A DNA stretch of 47,229 nt. It comes from Chloroflexota bacterium. GTDB taxonomy: Bacteria; Chloroflexota; Dormibacteria; Dormibacterales; Dormibacteraceae. The stretch lies in the NCBI GenBank assembly GCA_005889085.1, contig VBDS01000012.1:1-47229 (forward strand). The letters run 5' to 3'. Positions 6,748-40,239 of the stretch are shown in pieces. The notes beneath the pieces are model-generated. The model was given only the letters and a program-made list of their open reading frames with translations. It made no database searches and had not been told where the DNA came from. Position numbers and translations under genes: made by a program. Within the stretch, counting starts at the first letter, position 1. Each line of letters begins with the position of its first letter.

Positions 6748-7226
6748 GCGGCCTCGCCCACGTCATCACCGTCAGCGACGGGGTGTCCGCAGGCACCCGC
6801 ACTGATGCAAGCGGTCCGGCCCTGTTAGAGATGCTGGGGGAGGCAGGCTTGAACGTTTCGGGCCCAGAGGTCGTACCTGATGAGCACGAGCTGATCACCG
6901 ACGCCATCATCGCCGCCGTGGTCGCGGGCGCGGACCTGGTGGTGACCACCGGCGGCACGGGCCTTGGACCGCGCGACGTCACCCCACAGGCCACGTCGCT
7001 GGTGATCGATTACGAGGTCCCTGGGATCGCCGAGCTCATGCGCCGCGCCGGGGAGGCGAGCACCCCGATGTCGGCGCTCTCCCGCGGAGTCGCCGGGGTG
7101 CGCGGCCACGCGCTGATCCTCAACGTTCCCGGCAGCAGCAAAGGCGCGACCGAATCGCTCGCCGCGGTGCTGCCGCTCCTGGAACATGCGATGCAGCTCC
7201 TCCACGGCCACACGCAACATAAATGA
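6744..7226 (+). CDS. mog: MoaB/MogA-family molybdopterin adenylyltransferase-like protein
   Basis: TTG 6744 overlaps the moaC stop (TTGA). Motifs: [28 protein letters not shown] and [12 protein letters not shown]. Confidence 0.85.
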
Positions 7227-7900
7227 ACCTCAACGCCGATATTGGTGAGGGCGCCGGCGAGGACGAGGCCGTGCTGGCTTCTGTCGACAGCGCGAACATC
7301 GCGTGCGGCGTCCACGCGGGCTCAGCGTCGATCGCGATCGCGACCGCGTGGCGATGCCGGACACTCGGCCTGGAGGTGGGGGCGCATCCCGGCTACGACG
7401 ACAGGTCGGGCTTCGGCCGTGTCGAGCGGTCGCTCGGCGCGGACGAGATAGAGGCGCTCATCGCCTTCCAGGTGGCAAGCCTCGCCGCCGTGGCCCCGAT
7501 CGCATACATCAAGCCTCATGGCGCGCTGTACCACCGCTGCCAGCGGGACGCGGCGGCGGCCGACGCGCTGGCGCGGGTCGCGAAGTCACACGGCATTGGA
7601 TTGGTCGGGCAGCCTGGGTTCGAGATCGTCGCCGCGGCTGGGCGCGCGGGCGTCCCGGGCTACCGCGAGGGTTTCGCCGACCGGCTGATGCTGCCCGACG
7701 GCTCGCTCGCGCCGCGCAGCCAGGCGGGCGCGGTCCTCAACCCGGACCTCGCCGCGCAGCAGGCGCTGAGCCTCGCCCGTTCCGGCCGCTGCGACACGAT
7801 CTGCGTCCACGGTGACACCAAAGGCGCCGGCCAGGTCGCTGCCTCGGTCCGCAAGGCACTGCGCGAAGCCGGCATCGAGACCGCGCCCCTGGCCAGTTGA
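7223..7900 (+). CDS. pxpA: 5-oxoprolinase subunit A (LamB/YcsF family)
   Basis: [10 protein letters not shown]...SANIACGVHAGS...GAHPGYDD...IKPHGALY. ATGA overlap with mog. Confidence 0.9.
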   Translation: MNLNADIGEGAGEDEAVLASVDSANIACGVHAGSASIAIATAWRCRTLGLEVGAHPGYDDRSGFGRVERSLGADEIEALIAFQVASLAAVAPIAYIKPHGALYHRCQRDAAAADALARVAKSHGIGLVGQPGFEIVAAAGRAGVPGYREGFADRLMLPDGSLAPRSQAGAVLNPDLAAQQALSLARSGRCDTICVHGDTKGAGQVAASVRKALREAGIETAPLAS

Positions 7901-8676
7901 ATCCAGCCGGCGCACTCGCGCTCAAGCTGGTCCTGACCCCCGTCCTGGTCGGCGCGGCAAGCCTGGCCGGACGCCGGTGGGGCTCAGCAGTGGGCGGATG
8001 GTTGATCGGGATCCCATTCACCTCCGGACCGATCGCCTTCTTCCTTGCCTTGAATCCAGGTCCGCGATTTGCGGCAGAGGCTGCCGCCGGGATCATGGCC
8101 GGCACAGCGTCCCAGGCGATGTTCTGCCTGGCCTACGCGTGGGCGGCGCAGCGCGCGGGCTGGGCTCAATCGTTGATCGCTGCGACCGTCGCCTTCATCT
8201 CCGCCACTGTCCTCCTCGACCTCTTCATCGCTCCGGCGCCGGCCATGTTTGTGGTCATGCTTCTGGTCCTGGTGGTATCGCTGTTTCTGATGCCGGGCGA
8301 GTCGATCCGATCGGGCGAGCAGATCGCGTCTCCAAGTTGGGACCTCCCGGCGCGCATGGCCGTCGCCACCGCTTTCGTGGTCGCGCTGACGGCGGCGGCG
8401 CCGCTCCTCGGTCCCCGCCTGGCTGGGCTCGTCGCGCCGTTCCCGCTCTATGGAGCGGTGCTCGCAGGGTTTGCCCATCGCATCCAGGGCGCCGGCCAGG
8501 CGGTGGCCGTGCTGCGCGGCTTGCTGCTGGGACTCTTTGCGTTCGCGTCCTTCTTCCTGACACTCGCCCTCGTTCTGCCTACCGGGATCGCCGTCGCGTT
8601 CGGATCCGCGATCGCGGTGGCGCTCCTCGTGCAGGGCGGGTCGCTCGTGGCCGGGCGGCGCTGGGGCCTCGCGTGA
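7897..8676 (+). CDS. Polytopic membrane protein, hypothetical (259 aa)
   Basis: Hydrophobic throughout, with about 7-8 predicted helices. TTGA overlap with pxpA and GTGA overlap with the downstream GNAT gene. Confidence 0.6.
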   Translation: MNPAGALALKLVLTPVLVGAASLAGRRWGSAVGGWLIGIPFTSGPIAFFLALNPGPRFAAEAAAGIMAGTASQAMFCLAYAWAAQRAGWAQSLIAATVAFISATVLLDLFIAPAPAMFVVMLLVLVVSLFLMPGESIRSGEQIASPSWDLPARMAVATAFVVALTAAAPLLGPRLAGLVAPFPLYGAVLAGFAHRIQGAGQAVAVLRGLLLGLFAFASFFLTLALVLPTGIAVAFGSAIAVALLVQGGSLVAGRRWGLA

Positions 8677-9473
8677 GCGCCGACATACGCGAGCTCAGCG
8701 AGCTGGAAGACCTGCGGCAGCTGGCCGAGCTCTTCGCCGTGGTCTGGGGCCGCCCCGGCAAGCCGCCAATAAGCTCCGACATTCTCAAGGCGCTGGCGCA
8801 CTCGGGCAACTACCTCTCCGGTGCCTATGTCGGTGGGCGGCTCATCGGCGGGCTGGTGGGGTGGCTCGGTGGCGTCCCTCCGCACGCGCTGCACATGCAC
8901 TCGCACATCCTTGGCGTGGTGCCCGACAGCGAAGCGCGCGGCCTCGGGTTTGACCTGAAGCAGCACCAGCGTCGGTGGTGCCTGGCCCGCGATGTGAAGG
9001 TCATGGAGTGGACGACCGATCCGCTGATCCGGCGCAACGCCTACTTCAACCTGAGCAAGCTCGGCGCCGGCGCTCCTGAATACCTCGTGGATTTCTATGG
9101 ACAGATGGAAGACGGGATAAACGCCGGAGACGCGTCGGACCGGCTGCTGATCCGGTGGCAGCTCGACTCGAGGAAGGCTGAGGCGGCGGCCGCAGGCGAG
9201 CTCACGGAGCTGGACGTGGACAAGCTTCGCGGCTGGGGCCGCACGCCAATCCTCTCCGCGGGCCCGCATGGCGAGCCGGTGCTGGAATCCTCCTCGGCTC
9301 GCGTCCTTATATGTCAGGTGCCAGACGATATCGTCGCGCTGCGACATTCCGACCCGGGTCTTGCGCGCGAGTGGCGCATCGCGCTGCGGCTCGCGTTGGG
9401 CGGAGCGCTTGACCGCGGCTACGAGATCGCGGGAGCGACGCGCTCCGGCTGGTACGTGCTGGAGAACCAATAA
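8673..9473 (+). CDS. GNAT-superfamily acetyltransferase-like protein
   Basis: GTG 8673 lies inside the long 7812..9473 ORF. HILGVVPDSEARGLGFDLKQHQRRW matches an acetyl-CoA-binding Q/RxxGxG/A-like motif. The upstream part of the listed ORF overlaps the membrane gene out of frame. Confidence 0.7.
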   Translation: MSADIRELSELEDLRQLAELFAVVWGRPGKPPISSDILKALAHSGNYLSGAYVGGRLIGGLVGWLGGVPPHALHMHSHILGVVPDSEARGLGFDLKQHQRRWCLARDVKVMEWTTDPLIRRNAYFNLSKLGAGAPEYLVDFYGQMEDGINAGDASDRLLIRWQLDSRKAEAAAAGELTELDVDKLRGWGRTPILSAGPHGEPVLESSSARVLICQVPDDIVALRHSDPGLAREWRIALRLALGGALDRGYEIAGATRSGWYVLENQ

Positions 9474-9483
9474 ACTCATCTGC

Positions 9484-9966
9484 GTGCTGCAGGTGGGGGA
9501 CAAGGCGCCCGACTTCAAGCTGCCCACGACGGCGGGCCAGGAGCTGACGCTCGGGGAGGCGCTGCAGAAATACCGCGCGCTCATCTTCCTTTTCTATGTG
9601 CTCGACTTCACGGGTGGTTGAAGGACCGAGCTGACCGAGTTTCGGTCCAGGAATGACGATGCGGTCGCCCACGGAGTCGGCATCTACGGCATCAGCGTCG
9701 ACTCCGTCTTCTCGCACACGGCCTTTGCCAAAGAGCTCGGCGGCCTGCCTTTCGACCTGATCGGCGACTTCGAGCGCAAAATGGTGACCGACTACGGGGT
9801 GCGCCGAGACGACGTGGCGGGCTACTCGGGGATGGCTCGCCGCACGATCTTCATCGTCGACCGTGCCGAAACCATCCGGTGGACCTGGGTCGCTTCGCGC
9901 GAGCAGCCTCAGCCGGATTACGACGCGGTGGTCGAAGAGGCCAAGCGGGTCGCGAGCGGGGCATGA
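9484..9966 (+). CDS. AhpE-like 1-Cys peroxiredoxin with in-frame TGA at the peroxidatic-Cys position (candidate selenocysteine, codon 46)
   Basis: The pieces 9484..9618 and 9622..9966 are in the same frame and are separated only by TGA 9619-9621. The joined product reads MLQVGDKAPDFKLP...IFLFYVLDFTGG[U]RTELTEFR...GISVDSVFSH...RRTIFIVD. That is the Prx TxxC motif with U in place of C, plus the conserved Arg. Confidence 0.75.
9623..9650 (+). promoter_or_regulatory. Candidate bacterial SECIS hairpin downstream of UGA 9619
   Basis: Two alternative folds. Fold 1: GGACCGA (9623-9629) pairs with TCGGTCC (9642-9648) around a 12-nt loop. Fold 2: GACCGA (9633-9638) pairs with TCGGTC (9642-9647) around a GUU apical loop 20 nt after the U of UGA, extendable by C9631-G9650 and U9632-A9649 with C9648 bulged. 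Confidence 0.5.
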
Positions 9967-10472
9967 CGGCGCCCAACAGCGTGGTCGAACCTATCGAGCG
10001 ATCGTGGAAGGAGCTCGATACGCTCGTCGAGTCGCTCGGCCCTGTCGGTCTGACAATCAGCGGCGCGGACGGCTGGGCGGTCAAGGACCACCTGGTGCAC
10101 ATCGCCGCTTGGGAGCACTCGCTGCTCGCGCTGCTGGAGGGAGCCGATCGGCGCACGGCGATGGGCGTCGGCCGTGAGGCAGAGGACACCGACTCGATCA
10201 ACGCCGCGGTCTGGTCGCTGCACCGCTCGAAGACGCCAGAGCAGGCCCTTGCCTACTTTCGAGAGACGCATTCGCTCCTGATGAAGCTGCTCGCAACGAT
10301 GAGCGACCCCGACCTGCAGCTGTCCTACAACCACTTCCAGCCCAACGATCCGCGCGATCCCAAAGACGACCGGCCTGTCGCCGACTGGGTCGCCGGCAAC
10401 ACCTACGAGCATTACGCGGAGCACACCGATTGGATAAATCAGTTGGTGAGGGATTCGAGCGCAGCTCGTTGA
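9963..10472 (+). CDS. ClbS/DfsB-like (DinB-fold) four-helix-bundle protein
   Basis: ATG 9963 overlaps the peroxiredoxin stop (ATGA). WAVKDHLVHIAAWEHSLLALLEG and AGNTYEHYAEHTDWI resemble the DUF1706/DinB His pattern. Confidence 0.65.
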   Translation: MTAPNSVVEPIERSWKELDTLVESLGPVGLTISGADGWAVKDHLVHIAAWEHSLLALLEGADRRTAMGVGREAEDTDSINAAVWSLHRSKTPEQALAYFRETHSLLMKLLATMSDPDLQLSYNHFQPNDPRDPKDDRPVADWVAGNTYEHYAEHTDWINQLVRDSSAAR

Positions 10473-11371
10473 TCGGCGCGCAGCGCTAGCGCCACCTCGA
10501 TCGACGTCTCGGTAAAGCGCAGCTCATCGCCTGGCGCGAGCTGCGCGGCGATTGGCATCGAGGCGCTTGCCACCGTGGCCACGATCGGGTAGCCGCCGGC
10601 GGTCTGATGGTCCGCCATGAGCAGGATCGGCTGTCCGCCCGAGGGCAGCTGCACGACGCCTGCGACCAGGCCGAATGACAGCAGCTCGTCGCCGGGCGCA
10701 TCGAGCCGCGCGCCTTCAAGCCGGTAGCCCATCCGGTTGGAGTCGTGGCTTACCGCGTAGGTCGCCTCGAACAGGGCTTGCCGCGACTCTGGCTGCAGGC
10801 GCGTGAAGTGCGGCCCCGCGATCGCGTGCAGAGTCCGCTCCTCATATCGCGGCCGAAGGTGCTCGCTCATCGTGCGGCCCGCGATCAGTGGGACTGTCGA
10901 GTCGTGGACCGAGATGACATCGCCCGAGATCAGAGCGCGGCCGTCCATGCCGCCCCGCCCGCACATCAGGTTGGTCGACATCGACCCAAGCCACCGGTCT
11001 CCGGCGACACCCCCACCGACGGCCACATAGGCACGCGCCCCGGTGCGTCTGCGGCCGAATGTCAGCTCATCGCCGGCGGCGAGCAAGACTCCGGTCCACC
11101 CAGGGACGGATGCGCCGTTCACGTGCGGATCCAAATCCGCGCCCGTGATCGCGATCAAGCAGTCGCGCTCTGCCACCAGATAGGGTCCGCTCAAAGTGCA
11201 TTCGAGGGTGGCCGCGCCGCGTTCGTTGCCCACGAGCATGTTGGCCGCGGAGTGGGCGAAACGGTCCATCGCGCCGCCGGGCGGCACACCGGCGGCGATG
11301 GCCTGCGGCCGCCCGATGTCCTGAATGGTCGTGAAAAGGCCAGGTTGCACGACGCGCAGCGCCTCGGTCAT
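10439..11371 (-). CDS. pxpC: 5-oxoprolinase subunit C (allophanate hydrolase subunit 2 family)
   Basis: MTEALRVVQPGLFTTIQDIGR...GAMD...SNRMGYRLEG...GGQPILLMADHQTAGGYP. ATGA overlap with pxpB. Confidence 0.9.
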   Translation of the reverse strand: MTEALRVVQPGLFTTIQDIGRPQAIAAGVPPGGAMDRFAHSAANMLVGNERGAATLECTLSGPYLVAERDCLIAITGADLDPHVNGASVPGWTGVLLAAGDELTFGRRRTGARAYVAVGGGVAGDRWLGSMSTNLMCGRGGMDGRALISGDVISVHDSTVPLIAGRTMSEHLRPRYEERTLHAIAGPHFTRLQPESRQALFEATYAVSHDSNRMGYRLEGARLDAPGDELLSFGLVAGVVQLPSGGQPILLMADHQTAGGYPIVATVASASMPIAAQLAPGDELRFTETSIEVALALRADQRAALESLTN

Positions 11372-12036
11372 TCGGGGACGGGGAAGAATTTCACCCGATC
11401 TCCGGCGCGAAAAAGCGAGGGCGGGTCCGAGTCCGGCAGGAAGAGCCTGACCGACGTCCGGCCGATCAGGTGCCATCCGCCCGGGCTGACCAAAGGGTAG
11501 ACCCCGGTCTGGTGGCCCGCGATCGCCACCGACCCGGCGGGCACCTGCGTGCGCGGCACCGAGCGGCGCGGCAGCACTAGCTCCTCCGGCAGCGGTCCGA
11601 GATACGCCCAACCCGGAACGAAGCCGATCAGGAATGCGCGGTAGATCGGCCGGCCGTGGTGCTCGATCACCTGCTCAGGCGAAAGGCCCAGCTTCGCGGC
11701 GACGGCCACGAGGTCCGGGCCGTCGTAGACGACCGGGATGCGGTGGAGACGGCCAGGTTCCTCCATGGGCGGGCGCTTGGCGGCCAGGCGCCTGATCGCC
11801 GCCGCAAGCGCCCCGTGCGTGACCTGGTCAGGGTCGAACTGCACGGTGACGCTCGCATGACCGGCAACGGCCTGGCGCACGTCGCGGCGTTTCTTCAGCG
11901 CCGCGGCGAGTGCTATCGCGCGTGTGTTGAGCGCGGTGTCGAGCCGAGTGCCAAGCTCGGCGAGGACGGCCGCGTCACCGAGCGGATGGACGCGGATCTT
12001 CACGGGGGAGCGCTGCGGCGGCATGTGCGCTGACAA
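11368..12036 (-). CDS. pxpB: 5-oxoprolinase subunit B (KipI / allophanate hydrolase subunit 1 family)
   Basis: IRVHPLGDAAVLAELG...IPVVYDGPDL...YRAFLIGFVPGWAYLG...AGSVAIAGHQTGVYP. Start candidates are TTG 12036, ATG 12024 and GTG 12003. Confidence 0.9.
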   Translation of the reverse strand: MSAHMPPQRSPVKIRVHPLGDAAVLAELGTRLDTALNTRAIALAAALKKRRDVRQAVAGHASVTVQFDPDQVTHGALAAAIRRLAAKRPPMEEPGRLHRIPVVYDGPDLVAVAAKLGLSPEQVIEHHGRPIYRAFLIGFVPGWAYLGPLPEELVLPRRSVPRTQVPAGSVAIAGHQTGVYPLVSPGGWHLIGRTSVRLFLPDSDPPSLFRAGDRVKFFPVPE

Positions 12037-37793: not shown

Positions 37794-38828
37794 TTACGGA
37801 GTCGGAATGTCGGCCGGCGGGGTGAGCGTGCCTGCCTTGATCTTGTCCTGGAAGGTCTTGAGCTCGGTCTGGAGCTCGGCCGGTACGGTCAGGTTGTCGA
37901 CCGCGTAGCCGGCGCCGTCATTGGCGATGCTGAACGTCAGCGCGCCTGCCTGGAACTGGCCGTTGACGACGTTCTTGATCGCGGTGTAGGTGGCAACGTC
38001 GACCTTCTTCAGCGCGCTGGCGATGACTGAGGGGTCTGCGTCTTTCTGGTCAGCGTCGACGCCGATGCTGTAGACGCCTGCTTGCCCCGCGCCCTGCAGG
38101 ACGCCGAGTCCGCAACCGCCGGCCACCTGGAAGAGGATGTCGGCATTCGAGTTGATCATGCTGGTCGCCTGCCCTTTGCACTTGGCCGGGTCGGTGAAGT
38201 CGTTCGAGTAGCCGACCAGAACCTTGATCGACGGGTCTTCCATAGTGGCAGCCCACTTGTAACCCGCGATGTAGTGGTTGACCGGCGGAATGCTGATACC
38301 GCCGACCGCGCCGATCACGTGCTTGTTCTTCTTCGCCTTTCCGTTCTTCTCCATCCAGCCGGCGATGACGCCCACCATGGCGCCTGCGTCCTGCTCTTTG
38401 AAGAAAAGGGATTCGACGTTGGTGTGCTTGAGGTCGTTGCCGTTGGCGTCAGTACCCGCCCCGTCGATGATCGCGAAGTGGATGTTCGGGAACTGGCCCG
38501 AGACGGTACCCACCGCCTCTTGCATCAGGAAGCCGACTCCTATCACGAGGTCGTAGTTCTTGGACGCGAAGCCGGTCAGGTTGTTCACATAGTCGTTGCC
38601 GCTCTTCGACTCCGTGACGTCGTCCTTGATGCCGAAGTCGGTCTTCGCCTTCTCTAGCCCGACGTAAGCGAGATGGTTGAAGCTCTTGTCGTTGAGACCG
38701 CCGATGTCGGTGACGAGCCCGATCTTGTACTGCTTGGAAGTGCCGGGATTGTTGCTTCCGCCGCAGGCCATTGCAACCATCAAGACCACGGCAGCCACAC
38801 CCAGGAATTTGAACCGCTTATACGCCAT
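37794..38828 (-). CDS. BMP-family (PnrA/Med-like) ABC substrate-binding lipoprotein
   Basis: Lipobox MACGG. IGLVTDIGGLNDKSFN and GVGFLM. Shine-Dalgarno sequence GAAGGGAGAG upstream. Confidence 0.9.
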   Translation of the reverse strand: MAYKRFKFLGVAAVVLMVAMACGGSNNPGTSKQYKIGLVTDIGGLNDKSFNHLAYVGLEKAKTDFGIKDDVTESKSGNDYVNNLTGFASKNYDLVIGVGFLMQEAVGTVSGQFPNIHFAIIDGAGTDANGNDLKHTNVESLFFKEQDAGAMVGVIAGWMEKNGKAKKNKHVIGAVGGISIPPVNHYIAGYKWAATMEDPSIKVLVGYSNDFTDPAKCKGQATSMINSNADILFQVAGGCGLGVLQGAGQAGVYSIGVDADQKDADPSVIASALKKVDVATYTAIKNVVNGQFQAGALTFSIANDGAGYAVDNLTVPAELQTELKTFQDKIKAGTLTPPADIPTP

Positions 38829-38851
38829 CCTCGTTGCTCTCCCTTCAACTG

Positions 38852-38874
38852 AAAAAGCCCAGGCGCGGCTGGGC
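38852..38874 (-). promoter_or_regulatory. Terminator-like hairpin plus U-tract in the 5' leader of the BMP transporter operon (candidate attenuator)
   Basis: Minus-strand RNA reads GCCCAG-ccgcgc-CUGGGC-UUUUU (stem 38857-38862 with 38869-38874; U-tract 38852-38856). It sits about 25 nt upstream of the SBP ATG, with no upstream same-strand gene. A TGTACAAT extended -10-like box lies about 30 nt further upstream. Confidence 0.35.
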
Positions 38875-38946
38875 GCGGATCGCTCGGTCGGCCGGATTGT
38901 ACACCCGCCTTATCTGGTGGTCTGGGAGCGCAGAGAATTGCAGGGG

Positions 38947-40239
38947 ATGAACGTTCTCGAGGTCATCGGGCGCAAGCGCGACGGGCACGAGCACTCGCCC
39001 GAAGAGATCCAGTTTCTCCTCGGCGGCTACCTGCGAAAGGAGATCCCCGACTACCAGATGGCGGCCTGGCTGATGGCGGTCTGCATCCGCGGCATGACCG
39101 CGCCGGAGACCCTCGCGCTGACCAGGGCGATGATCGAAAGCGGCGAGGTCCTCGACCTGAGCACGATCCCGGGCATCAAAGTCGACAAGCACTCGACCGG
39201 AGGCGTCGGTGACAAGGTGACGCTGGTCGCGGCGCCGCTCGCGGCCGCATGCGGGGTCAAGGTGCCCAAGCTCAGCGGCCGCGCTCTGGCCCACACCGGC
39301 GGCACACTGGACAAGCTCGAGTCGGTCCCGGGGCTCACAGTCGACCTCGAGCCTGAGCGATTCATCAAGCAGGTCCTCGAGGTCGGCATCGCAGTCGCGG
39401 CGCAATCGCCGCGCATGGTGCCGGCGGACAAGCTGCTCTACGCGCTGCGCGACGTCACCGCGACTGTGCCGTCGGTACCGCTCATCGCGTCGAGCGTGAT
39501 GTCGAAGAAGATTGCCGCCGGCGCGGATGCCATCGTTCTCGACGTGAAATTCGGGCGCGGCGCCTTCATGCCAGATTTCGCGTCAGCCGAGGAGCTGGCC
39601 AAAGAGATGGTGACGCTCGGCGAAGGCGCAGGGCGGCGCACGGTGGCGCTGGTCACCGCGATGGACAACCCGCTGGGCCGCTCGGTCGGCAACGCGCTCG
39701 AGGTCCAGGAGGCGCTCGACGCGCTTTCCGGAGAGGGCGACGCGGAGCTGCTCCAGGTGTGCCTCAGGGTGACCCGCGAGATGTGCGAGCTGGCGGGCGT
39801 GCGGGCCGACCCGGAGAAAGTGATGCGCTCAGGTGCGGGGCGCCAGACCTTCGAGCGCATGCTCGTCGCCCAGGGAGGTCACCTGGAGCAGGGGCTTCCC
39901 GTGGCGCCGGTCCAGGTTCCTGTGACCGCCGACCGAAACGGACACGTCGAAGCGATCGACGCGCTCGAGGTCGGCCTGTCGGCGCTCGAGCTCGGCGCGG
40001 GGCGACTGCGCAAGGAGGACAGGGTCGATCCGGCCGCGGGCGTCGTCATCGAAGCACCGGTCGGCGCGCGGGTGCGATCCGGAGATCCGCTCGTGACCGT
40101 GCACGCGCGCTCGAACGAGCTGGTCGAGCGCGTCACGAAGCGCTTGCGCAACGCCTGGCGACTGACCGATCGCGAAGTGGGTAAGCCGCCTCACGTACTC
40201 GCCCGGGTCGACAAGAACGGAATTGCAAAGGGCGATTAG
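38947..40239 (+). CDS. deoA: Pyrimidine-nucleoside / thymidine phosphorylase
   Basis: MNVLEVIGRKRDG, DYQMAAWLMAV and KVDKHSTGGVGDKVTL...HTGGTLDKLES. Confidence 0.9.
   Translation: MNVLEVIGRKRDGHEHSPEEIQFLLGGYLRKEIPDYQMAAWLMAVCIRGMTAPETLALTRAMIESGEVLDLSTIPGIKVDKHSTGGVGDKVTLVAAPLAAACGVKVPKLSGRALAHTGGTLDKLESVPGLTVDLEPERFIKQVLEVGIAVAAQSPRMVPADKLLYALRDVTATVPSVPLIASSVMSKKIAAGADAIVLDVKFGRGAFMPDFASAEELAKEMVTLGEGAGRRTVALVTAMDNPLGRSVGNALEVQEALDALSGEGDAELLQVCLRVTREMCELAGVRADPEKVMRSGAGRQTFERMLVAQGGHLEQGLPVAPVQVPVTADRNGHVEAIDALEVGLSALELGAGRLRKEDRVDPAAGVVIEAPVGARVRSGDPLVTVHARSNELVERVTKRLRNAWRLTDREVGKPPHVLARVDKNGIAKGD

What the first reader, a model, noticed from the sequence alone, without database searches (positions are those of the whole stretch)
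9484..9966. AhpE-like peroxiredoxin with UGA exactly at the peroxidatic cysteine position, followed by a SECIS-like hairpin
The ORF track splits this gene into 9268..9621 and 9781..9966. Reading through shows both pieces are in one frame, separated only by TGA 9619-9621. The joined protein is a complete Prx fold: FYVLDFTGG-[TGA]-RTELTEF, then GISVDS, DFERK and RRTIFIVD. The TGA falls on the Cys of the universal TxxC motif, as in the FTGICQGEL of mycobacterial AhpE. A stable hairpin follows directly. In one of its two folds it places a GUU apical loop 20 nt after the UGA with a bulged C in the stem, which fits the known geometry of bacterial SECIS elements. TGA is a normal stop elsewhere in this window, including many ATGA overlaps, so a reassigned genetic code does not explain it. 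Selenocysteine peroxiredoxins are known but rare (PrxU of Eubacterium acidaminophilum). An AhpE-type one in a high-GC organism, translationally coupled to a ClbS/DinB-like gene, would be unusual.
Basis: partly seen in the sequence, partly recalled or inferred. Interest (0 to 1): 0.8.

Follow-up and report, generated by a model that had tools for sequence, protein, structure and literature searches.

The report
Selenocysteine peroxiredoxin gene in Dormibacterota
This is one intact gene for a peroxide-destroying enzyme whose active-site cysteine is replaced by a UGA-encoded selenocysteine; the enzyme type is known, but this soil-bacterial version is split or cut short in the public gene calls and protein records I examined.

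Summary
Window 9484-9966 (+) is a single 160-codon AhpC/TSA peroxiredoxin frame. It is interrupted only by TGA 9619-9621, which aligns with the peroxidatic Cys.

- **Conservation:** the same TGA is present in all 83 orthologues checked at the DNA level: the window, 80 genome loci (mostly Candidatus Dormibacterota MAGs) and 2 metagenome contigs.
- **Selection:** the 45 codons before the TGA are under the same purifying selection as the 100 after it (pN/pS 0.20 vs 0.23).
- **Cys homologues:** the nearest full-length relatives (43% identity or less) mostly carry Cys at that column.
- **Hairpin:** a 15-nt hairpin (9633-9647, loop GUU) starts at +15 from the UGA, as in E. coli fdhF, and fits the published bacterial SECIS consensus. 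Its synonymous sites are invariant in 81 sequences, against local codon preference, while neighbouring synonymous sites vary freely.
- **Genetic code:** TGA is the normal stop here (27 of 34 confident ORFs).
- **Second candidate:** a PrdB/GrdB-type gene with TGA at UxxC occurs in the same phylum.

It contains no cysteine at all.

Untested: selA/B/C/D in these genomes and actual selenium incorporation.

Verdict: a new member of a known kind, of moderate interest.

The parts
9484..9966 (+). Complete coding sequence of a BCP/PrxQ-type peroxiredoxin, 160 codons. It starts at GTG and has an in-frame UGA at codon 46. Its terminal stop is TGA 9964-9966.
   Evidence: Single frame. Pfam AhpC-TSA at 107 bits. 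The start codon is GTG or ATG in 81 of 81 orthologues, and pN/pS is 0.20 before the UGA and 0.23 after it. The AF2 model of orthologue P0001 has pLDDT 96.3 and TM 0.90 to Sulfolobus Bcp4.
9619..9621 (+). UGA read as selenocysteine at the peroxidatic position (T43-x-x-U46).
   Evidence: It aligns to the peroxidatic Cys of solved Bcp/PrxQ structures. TGA is present in 81 of 81 genome orthologues and in 2 more distant metagenome orthologues. Most of the nearest full-length relatives carry Cys there; two carry Ser.
9633..9647 (+). Core of the candidate bacterial SECIS: GACCGA / GUU / UCGGUC, at +15..+29 from the U of UGA. In the window it can be extended to 9631-9650 with C9648 bulged.
   Evidence: Third-codon bases at +15, +18, +21 and +27 are invariant in 81 sequences. 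Phe53 is UUU in 69 of 81, against local UUC use. Sites +9 and +30 vary freely. The five core pairs are 80/80. The hairpin starts at the same position as the E. coli fdhF upper SECIS stem. It fits the bSECIS consensus in PMC13188914.
9613..9618 (+). GGU-GGU codons immediately before the UGA. This is a conserved sequence context of unknown role.
   Evidence: Codon 45 is GGU in 81 of 81 and codon 44 is GGU in 72 of 81, in genes whose other Gly codons vary freely.
9963..10472 (+). Downstream DUF1706/DinB_2-fold gene. Its ATG overlaps the peroxiredoxin stop as ATGA.
   Evidence: Pfam DUF1706 E 1e-12, DinB_2 E 2e-10, MDMPI_N E 6e-7. It is present directly downstream in 58 of the 81 sequences (window plus loci), 79 of which hold more than 900 nt downstream of the TGA.
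8673..9473 (+). Upstream gene for a weakly GNAT-like protein of unknown function. It ends 10 nt before the peroxiredoxin start. Its own start is approximate.
   Evidence: It lies immediately upstream in 81 of 81 loci. It has only sub-threshold GNAT hits, E 0.003. Public calls give 266 aa.

Best explanation
The region encodes one intact, expressed peroxiredoxin of the BCP/PrxQ subfamily. Its peroxidatic residue is selenocysteine, inserted at UGA 9619-9621.

**Inferred recoding mechanism.** During translation, a SelB-type elongation factor carrying Sec-tRNA(Sec) binds the small hairpin that begins 11 nt after the UGA (9633-9647, loop GUU). It delivers Sec before release factor 2 can terminate.

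**Inferred catalytic mechanism.** The selenolate, positioned by the conserved Thr43 and Arg120, attacks peroxide and becomes a selenenic acid. The protein has no cysteine at all, so there is no resolving Cys. It must be recycled directly by an external thiol, either a thioredoxin/glutaredoxin-type protein or a low-molecular-weight thiol.

**Shown:** gene integrity, conservation of the UGA, purifying selection on both sides, RNA-level constraint on the hairpin, the fold, and the catalytic residues.

**Inferred:** that the inserted residue is Sec, that the hairpin binds SelB, the peroxidase activity, and the reductant.
For: - **One frame, full domain:** a single frame covers the complete Prx domain.
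- **UGA conservation:** TGA is present at this codon in 83 of 83 orthologues down to 59% identity (A3), with no other in-frame stop.
- **Split public calls:** of 669 close database proteins (best 120 listed), nearly all are C-terminal pieces that begin just after the TGA. In a scan of 1.84 billion representatives, every hit at 57% identity or more is an N- or C-terminal piece, several breaking at codon 45 or 49, and N-terminal pieces end at codon 45.
- **Translated upstream part:** pN/pS is 0.20 upstream and 0.23 downstream of the TGA.
- **Cys homologues:** the nearest full-length homologues mostly carry Cys in that column.
- **Hairpin constraint:** synonymous sites inside the hairpin are invariant against local codon preference. 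Arg54 is CGG in 81/81 where other Arg codons prefer CGC. Thr51 is ACC in 80/80. Phe53 is UUU in 69/81. Sites just outside the hairpin vary freely.
- **SECIS geometry:** the loop starts with G then U, lies 17 nt after the UGA, and the stem starts at +15. This matches the bSECIS consensus (PMC13188914) and the fdhF element.
- **TGA is the stop codon:** it ends 27 of 34 confident ORFs in the window and 61 of 80 orthologous prx genes. It is the only coding-flanked TGA in 47 kb.
- **Second Sec-type gene in the phylum:** a PrdB/GrdB-family gene has TGA at U-P-D-C. L050 holds it on the same contig as the prx gene. NCBI names one of its fragments as Candidatus Dormibacterota. Its Cys homologues read CPDC.
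- **Catalytic residues:** Thr43 and Arg120 are present in 81/81. The model places residue 46 at the start of helix alpha2.
Against: - No selA, selB, selD or tRNA-Sec was found in the 1.19 Mb of related DNA held. That DNA is essentially one syntenic region, so this is not informative. The machinery in these genomes remains unverified.
- The hairpin core never varies, so there is no compensatory covariation. Two alternative folds both score well on pair counts.
- No Rfam family matches the element.
- The canonical Pro of PxxxTxxC is Val in all 81 orthologues.
- All genomes are uncultured MAGs. There is no expression, proteomic or selenium-labelling evidence.
Confidence: 0.86

Rival explanations
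1. The UGA is read through, but not as selenocysteine. One route is near-cognate suppression by Trp, Cys or Arg tRNAs stimulated by the hairpin. Another is a dedicated UGA-to-Cys recoding system using a SelB paralogue and a special tRNA.
For: The Sec machinery was not found or testable here. The hairpin shows conservation only, not covariation. The sequence data alone cannot tell which residue is inserted.
Against: The UGA sits exactly on the redox-active Cys column, which is the classic Sec/Cys pair. The hairpin matches bSECIS spacing and the loop G-U rule. A member of a bona fide selenoprotein family (PrdB/GrdB, UxxC) shows the same TGA signature in the phylum. A Trp or Arg at the peroxidatic site would give an inactive enzyme, yet the gene is under strong purifying selection. 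If Cys were inserted, a plain TGC/TGT codon would be expected to appear in at least some of the 83 lineages.
Confidence: 0.07
2. UGA terminates translation. The locus then yields a 45-residue N-terminal peptide and, by re-initiation, a separate C-terminal protein of about 111 residues, as the public gene calls imply.
For: Public gene calls report 100-116 aa C-terminal proteins and 45 aa N-terminal fragments.
Against: The start codons chosen by the callers differ between orthologues: MTEF, LTEF, MELTEF, or an internal Met 54 codons downstream in the window. No re-initiation site is therefore conserved. Neither piece would hold a complete thioredoxin fold or the active-site residue. Even so, both evolve as one frame-locked unit without indels, at equal pN/pS.
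Confidence: 0.03
3. The gene is a pseudogene, or the stop comes from a sequencing or assembly error.
For: A single in-frame stop in a window from an uncultured organism.
Against: The same TGA occurs in 83 independent assemblies from different studies, with no frameshifts or further stops and with pN/pS about 0.2 on both sides.
Confidence: 0.01
4. The organism uses a reassigned genetic code in which UGA is a sense codon (table 4 or 25). Some JGI gene calls imply this by placing W at the site.
For: Three JGI proteins carry W at this column.
Against: Those calls come from short contigs. The two whose DNA was read have TGA, and the gene does not translate to the query under table 11. TGA ends 27 of 34 confident ORFs in the window and 61 of 80 orthologous prx genes. 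Only one coding-flanked TGA exists in 47 kb.
Confidence: 0.01

Closest known systems
Sec-containing peroxiredoxins (Prx selenoprotein family, PF00578, T-x-x-U; type example PrxU of Eubacterium acidaminophilum)
   Same: The domain family is the same. Sec replaces the peroxidatic Cys in the TxxC motif. A hairpin lies directly downstream inside the coding region. Cys-containing homologues exist. The literature already records several independent Cys-to-Sec conversions in Prx (PMC1794560; PMC13188914).
   Different: It is not a PrxU orthologue: NCBIfam NF040737 scores 53.6 bits against a cutoff of 270. It belongs to the BCP/PrxQ subfamily, has no cysteine at all, and has Val in place of the PxxxTxxU proline. 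It occurs in high-GC soil Dormibacterota, whereas most Sec-peroxiredoxin hosts listed in PMC1794560 are anaerobes. Every close relative found carries the UGA form.
Archaeal/bacterial BCP/PrxQ peroxiredoxins (A. pernix Bcp/PrxQ 2cx3/4gqf, Sulfolobus Bcp4 3hjp and Bcp1 3drn, S. tokodaii PrxQ 2ywn/4g2e)
   Same: These are the best sequence matches (E 1.6e-24 to 8.5e-18, full length) and the best fold matches (TM 0.79-0.90). Length and secondary-structure order agree, and the Thr and Arg catalytic residues are present.
   Different: They use Cys at the peroxidatic site. A. pernix Bcp also has a resolving Cys five residues later, where this protein has Thr. Identity is only about 30-38%.
   Same: It is a one-cysteine peroxiredoxin of similar size from a high-GC organism. 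By my own knowledge, it is recycled by an external thiol system (mycothiol/mycoredoxin).
   Different: It is a much weaker relative. E is about 2e-9 against 1.6e-24 for Bcp, and it is absent from the 50 best fold matches.
E. coli fdhF SECIS and the bSECIS consensus model
   Same: The hairpin is inside the coding region. The upper stem begins at +15 from the U of UGA in both. The apical loop is small and has G followed by U. The distance from the UGA to the loop is 17 nt, within the published range of 16-37 nt.
   Different: The sequence is different. The loop is a triloop (GUU) instead of GGUC. Only about half of the orthologues can form a bulge. SelB binding is untested.

Membership tests
Peroxiredoxin (AhpC/TSA, PF00578) | Domain match above the Pfam gathering score over the full domain | tested here: met
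   107.4 bits against a cutoff of 26, covering profile positions 1-123 of 124.
Peroxiredoxin (AhpC/TSA, PF00578) | Thioredoxin fold with the peroxidatic residue at the N-terminus of helix alpha2 | tested here: met
   The AF2 model of orthologue P0001 has pLDDT 96.3, and a helix starts at residue 46. TM is 0.90 to Sulfolobus Bcp4.
Peroxiredoxin (AhpC/TSA, PF00578) | Catalytic Thr (TxxC) and catalytic Arg | tested here: met
   Thr43 and Arg120 are present in 81 of 81 orthologues.
Peroxiredoxin (AhpC/TSA, PF00578) | Conserved Pro of the PxxxTxxC motif | tested here: not met
   Val39 in 81 of 81. Some Cys-containing relatives also lack the Pro.
Peroxiredoxin (AhpC/TSA, PF00578) | Peroxidase activity | not testable with these tools
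   Needs an enzyme assay.
BCP/PrxQ subfamily | Closest sequence and structure relatives are BCP/PrxQ proteins | tested here: met
   The top PDB sequence hits are 2cx3, 2ywn and 3hjp. The top fold hits are 3hjp, 4gqf, 5enu, 2cx3 and 3drn.
BCP/PrxQ subfamily | Resolving Cys five residues after the peroxidatic residue (present in many members, not all) | tested here: not met
   That position is Thr (URTELT). There are zero Cys residues in all 81 orthologues.
AhpE subfamily | AhpE proteins are the nearest relatives | tested here: not met
   AhpE entries score E about 2e-9 against 1.6e-24 for Bcp. None appears among the 50 best fold matches.
PrxU (NCBIfam NF040737) | Score at or above the equivalog cutoff | tested here: not met
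   53.6 bits against a cutoff of 270.
Bacterial selenoprotein gene | In-frame UGA conserved among orthologues, with both flanks conserved as protein | tested here: met
   TGA in 83 of 83 orthologues. pN/pS is 0.20 upstream and 0.23 downstream.
Bacterial selenoprotein gene | Homologues with Cys aligned to the UGA | tested here: met
   P0126, P0128, P0129, P0131, P0132, P0138 and others have Cys in that column, as do the solved Bcp structures.
Bacterial selenoprotein gene | bSECIS: a stem-loop just downstream, G in the first two positions of a small apical loop followed by G or U, and the loop 16-37 nt from the UGA | tested here: met
   The loop is G21-U22-U23, 17 nt after the UGA, on a 5-6 bp invariant stem. 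The consensus is quoted from PMC13188914. RNA-level constraint is shown by the synonymous sites.
Bacterial selenoprotein gene | Compensatory base changes supporting the SECIS stem | tested here: inconclusive
   No pair changes on both sides. The core pairs never vary.
Bacterial selenoprotein gene | selA, selB, selD and tRNA-Sec present in the same genome | not testable with these tools
   None were found in the window or in 1.19 Mb of related loci. Indirect support comes from a PrdB/GrdB-type TGA gene in the same phylum.
Bacterial selenoprotein gene | Selenium actually incorporated | not testable with these tools
   Needs proteomics or 75Se labelling.

The most novel reading that the evidence does not exclude
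Dormibacterota is an uncultured soil phylum that, to my knowledge, is usually described as aerobic. On this reading it would be a previously unrecognised selenocysteine-using lineage that has fixed a cysteine-free, one-selenocysteine PrxQ, with no Cys-encoding orthologue left. The enzyme would work as part of a conserved three-gene module (GNAT-like, Sec-Prx, DinB/DUF1706). In that module the DinB-fold protein, or a low-molecular-weight thiol it handles, would recycle the selenenic acid. That recycling route has not been described for peroxiredoxins.
Probability: 0.25. Interest if true: 0.6.

Novelty: new member of a known kind. Interest (0 to 1): 0.45.

Why it matters
**Annotation.** In every close public record examined this gene is recorded as fragments of 45, 61 or 100-116 residues, or as a 'redoxin domain-containing protein'. 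No curated NCBIfam selenoprotein model covers it. Antioxidant capacity and selenium dependence of Dormibacterota are therefore probably under-called in the records examined. I found no paper linking the phylum to selenocysteine.

**Biology.** Current reviews state that aerobic bacteria rarely keep selenoproteins (PMC13188914). A Sec-peroxiredoxin with no Cys-encoding close orthologue, in a phylum usually described as aerobic (my own knowledge), would be a useful counter-example. It would also be a natural test case for why Sec is kept at a peroxidatic site.

**Enzymology.** A peroxiredoxin with no cysteine at all is a clean system for studying selenenic-acid recycling.

Tried and rejected
- **Rfam:** scans of the whole window at gathering thresholds and of 9590-9700 at E up to 10 gave no SECIS or other relevant family.
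- **tRNAs:** ARAGORN found none in the window or in 60 related loci.
- **Sec machinery:** tblastn with E. coli SelA, SelB and SelD against the window plus 80 loci gave no hits. Gene neighbourhoods of the PrdB-like gene in three further contigs also held no sel genes.
- **Covariation:** pair counts on two alternative folds showed no compensatory changes, so the fold cannot be chosen that way. I chose the short hairpin because the limits of synonymous-site invariance (+15..+27 fixed, +9 and +30 free) coincide with it. The long fold is also mismatched at pair 9-26 in 24 of 80 sequences.
- **Folding energy:** the 71-nt region is not unusual (z +0.39). Only the 37-nt piece is (z -3.1). Energy alone is weak evidence in this G+C-rich DNA.
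- **AhpE assignment:** rejected.
- **PrxU membership:** rejected.
- **Neighbour genes:** PDB sequence searches for the two neighbours gave nothing useful.
- **Literature:** searches for Dormibacterota with selenocysteine or selenium found nothing relevant.

Full report
**What is in the sequence.** The ORF list splits the region into 9268..9621 and 9781..9966. Translating 9484-9966 on the plus strand gives one frame of 160 codons. It starts at GTG 9484, has a single internal stop at TGA 9619-9621, and ends at TGA 9964-9966. With Cys placed at the internal stop, the protein matches Pfam AhpC-TSA at E 6e-31 over essentially the whole profile. In alignments to solved structures the TGA falls on the peroxidatic Cys. 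An example is A. pernix Bcp, which reads FFPAAFSPVC-TKEL where the window reads FYVLDFTGG-U-RTEL. The window is 66.5% G+C.

**The stop is conserved, not an accident.**
- A search of 5.8 billion proteins returned 669 close homologues. Among the 120 best that are listed, nearly all are 100-116 residues long and start just after the TGA column. That is the pattern expected when gene callers stop at a conserved in-frame UGA.
- A scan of one genome per prokaryotic species found 109 matching stretches, of which 80 were kept. Most are labelled Candidatus Dormibacterota or 'Chloroflexi bacterium CF_' soil MAGs.
- All 80 loci, and the window, have TGA at codon 46 and no other stop in the first 147 codons.
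- Three 'full-length' JGI proteins carry W at the site. The DNA of two of them (59 and 64% identical) has TGA there, so the W comes from translation table 4 being chosen on short contigs.
- In a filter-free scan of 1.84 billion representatives, every hit at 57% identity or more is an N- or C-terminal piece. Several break at codon 45 or 49, and N-terminal pieces end at codon 45. The nearest full-length relatives are 43% identical or less and mostly carry Cys in the column.

**Both halves are one translated gene.** Across the 81 orthologues, mean pN/pS is 0.20 for codons 2-45 and 0.23 for codons 57-147. The start codon is GTG or ATG in all of them. The start codons that public gene calls use for the C-terminal piece are not conserved. 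That argues against a separate downstream product.

**UGA is not a sense codon in this organism.** In the window, 27 of 34 confident long ORFs end in TGA, 7 of them at ATGA junctions. The orthologous prx genes themselves end in TGA in 61 of 80 cases. A scan for TGA codons with coding-type composition on both sides found only the peroxiredoxin site in the whole 47 kb.

**The hairpin.** Positions are numbered from the U of UGA as +1.
- The 81 sequences share G15-A-C-C-G-A20 / G21-U-U23 / U24-C-G-G-U-C29, which is window 9633-9647.
- The stem core never varies, so pair counting gives no compensatory evidence.
- A longer alternative fold (+5..+30) is the minimum-energy fold of the window sequence. 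It also scores well on pair counts, but it is mismatched at pair 9-26 in 24 of 80 sequences.
- The decisive evidence comes from synonymous sites. Of 60 codons with conserved 4- or 6-fold degenerate amino acids, only four have an invariant third base. These are codon 45 (GGU, just before the UGA) and codons 50, 51 and 54 inside the hairpin.
- Arg54 is CGG in 81/81, although other Arg codons in the gene prefer CGC. Phe53 is UUU in 69/81, although other Phe codons are UUC. Thr51 is ACC in 80/80, although other Thr codons vary freely.
- The synonymous sites at +9 and +30, just outside the short hairpin, vary like unconstrained sites.
- By my hypergeometric estimate, the chance that three of the four invariant codons are exactly the three degenerate codons of the hairpin core is about 1e-4.
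- The geometry fits the published bacterial SECIS consensus: G followed by G or U at the start of a small apical loop, 16-37 nt from the UGA (PMC13188914). Here the loop is GUU, 17 nt after the UGA.
- The stem begins at +15, the same position as the upper stem of the E. coli fdhF SECIS read from MG1655.
- The outer pairs differ between lineages: U13-A31/U14-A30 in some, and C13-G32/U14-A31 with a bulged C30 in others, including the window.

**Is selenocysteine decoding plausible in this phylum?** I could not test for selA, selB, selD or tRNA-Sec in the same genomes. None lies in the window or in the 1.19 Mb of related DNA held, and that DNA is one syntenic region. Running the TGA-flank scan over the 80 loci turned up a second candidate.
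- It lies at L050 16516-17454 on the minus strand, on the same 201-kb contig as the prx gene.
- It belongs to the PrdB/GrdB selenoprotein B family (TIGR04483, E 3e-36), with TGA at U-P-D-C.
- Its close homologues are 165-196-residue pieces (most exactly 168) ending at the TGA. NCBI names some of them as Candidatus Dormibacterota. More distant full-length homologues read C-P-D-C.
- The in-frame continuation was confirmed in two further contigs, and a conserved hairpin follows at +21..+38.
- UxxC is the known Sec motif of that family (PMC13188914).

This is indirect but independent support for Sec decoding in the phylum.

**What kind of peroxiredoxin it is.**
- The best solved relatives by sequence are A. 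pernix Bcp (E 1.6e-24), S. tokodaii PrxQ and Sulfolobus Bcp4. AhpE scores about E 2e-9.
- An AlphaFold model of orthologue P0001 (pLDDT 96.3) is closest to Sulfolobus Bcp4 (TM 0.90) and to other BCP/PrxQ structures. AhpE is absent from the top 50.
- NCBIfam PrxU scores 53.6 bits against a cutoff of 270.
- The protein is therefore BCP/PrxQ-like, not AhpE-like and not a PrxU orthologue.
- Thr43 and Arg120 are invariant. The canonical Pro is Val in all 81. None of the 81 orthologues contains a single cysteine.
- The inferred mechanism is a one-selenocysteine peroxiredoxin whose selenenic acid is reduced directly by an external thiol.

**Gene context.**
- A weakly GNAT-like gene ends 10 nt upstream in 81 of 81 loci.
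- A DUF1706/DinB_2 gene overlaps the stop by ATGA and is present in 58 of the 81 sequences.
- The trio lies between LamB/YcsF and the CT_C_D and CT_A_B carboxyltransferase-domain genes, which by my own knowledge look like 5-oxoprolinase subunits.
- Any functional link between these neighbours and the peroxiredoxin is speculation.

**Comparison with what is known.** Sec-containing peroxiredoxins (PF00578, TxxU) are an established prokaryotic selenoprotein family. Twelve members and five independent Cys-to-Sec conversions had already been counted in 2006, mostly in anaerobes (PMC1794560; PMC13188914). The present gene is a new clade of that kind. It differs in four ways:
- its subfamily (BCP/PrxQ);
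- the absence of any cysteine;
- its host phylum (high-G+C soil Dormibacterota);
- the fact that every close relative found carries the UGA form.

Public records annotate it as fragments or as a 'redoxin domain-containing protein'. I found no paper connecting Dormibacterota with selenocysteine.

**Verdict.** Confidence that this is a genuine UGA-recoded, most probably selenocysteine, peroxiredoxin gene is about 0.86. The remainder is mostly the untested identity of the inserted residue. It is a new member of a known kind and of moderate interest (0.45).

Noticed in passing
L050 16516-17454 (minus); L090 10001-10888; L091 10001-10861: A second selenoprotein candidate in Dormibacterota. It is a PrdB/GrdB-family gene with an in-frame TGA at U-P-D-C, and a conserved hairpin CGUGCC/CGUGCU/GGCACG lies at +21..+38. 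Public calls are 165-196-residue fragments (most exactly 168) ending at the TGA. More distant homologues have CPDC.
   Followed up: partly
window 9613-9618: The two codons before the UGA are GGU-GGU (72/81 and 81/81), in a gene whose other Gly codons vary freely and whose genome prefers G/C at third positions. This is a conserved context of unknown role. The pairing with 9662-9670 predicted for the window is not conserved.
   Followed up: partly
L083 335-826; L084 324-806 (proteins P0004, P0016; also P0001): JGI gene calls give Trp at the UGA because translation table 4 was applied to short contigs. These look like full-length Trp variants, but the two whose DNA was read (P0004, P0016) are UGA genes. 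P0001 was not checked.
   Followed up: yes
L013, L024, L036, L040, L052, L055, L065, L068, L080 (record titles): Syntenic copies that are 72-87% identical sit in MAGs labelled Verrucomicrobiia, Acidoferrum, Sulfotelmatobacter, Nitrosopolaris, Eisenbacteria, Gemmatimonadales, Vicinamibacterales and Micrarchaeaceae. These are probably mis-binned Dormibacterota contigs rather than horizontal transfer.
   Followed up: no
window 7223-7900 (+), 10439-11611 (-), 11368-12036 (-): The peroxiredoxin trio is flanked by LamB/YcsF and by CT_A_B and CT_C_D carboxyltransferase-domain genes, which look like the three 5-oxoprolinase subunits. This arrangement is kept in most related loci.
   Followed up: partly
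window 7897-8676 (+): A 259-residue hydrophobic ORF with no Pfam match lies between LamB/YcsF and the GNAT-like gene. It is present in only 28 of the related loci.
   Followed up: no
window 39831 (minus strand): With a slightly relaxed composition filter, one more TGA with open frames on both sides appears. The flanking peptides are rich in Arg, His, Leu and Ala. It looks like the antisense frame of the gene at 38677-40239.
   Followed up: no
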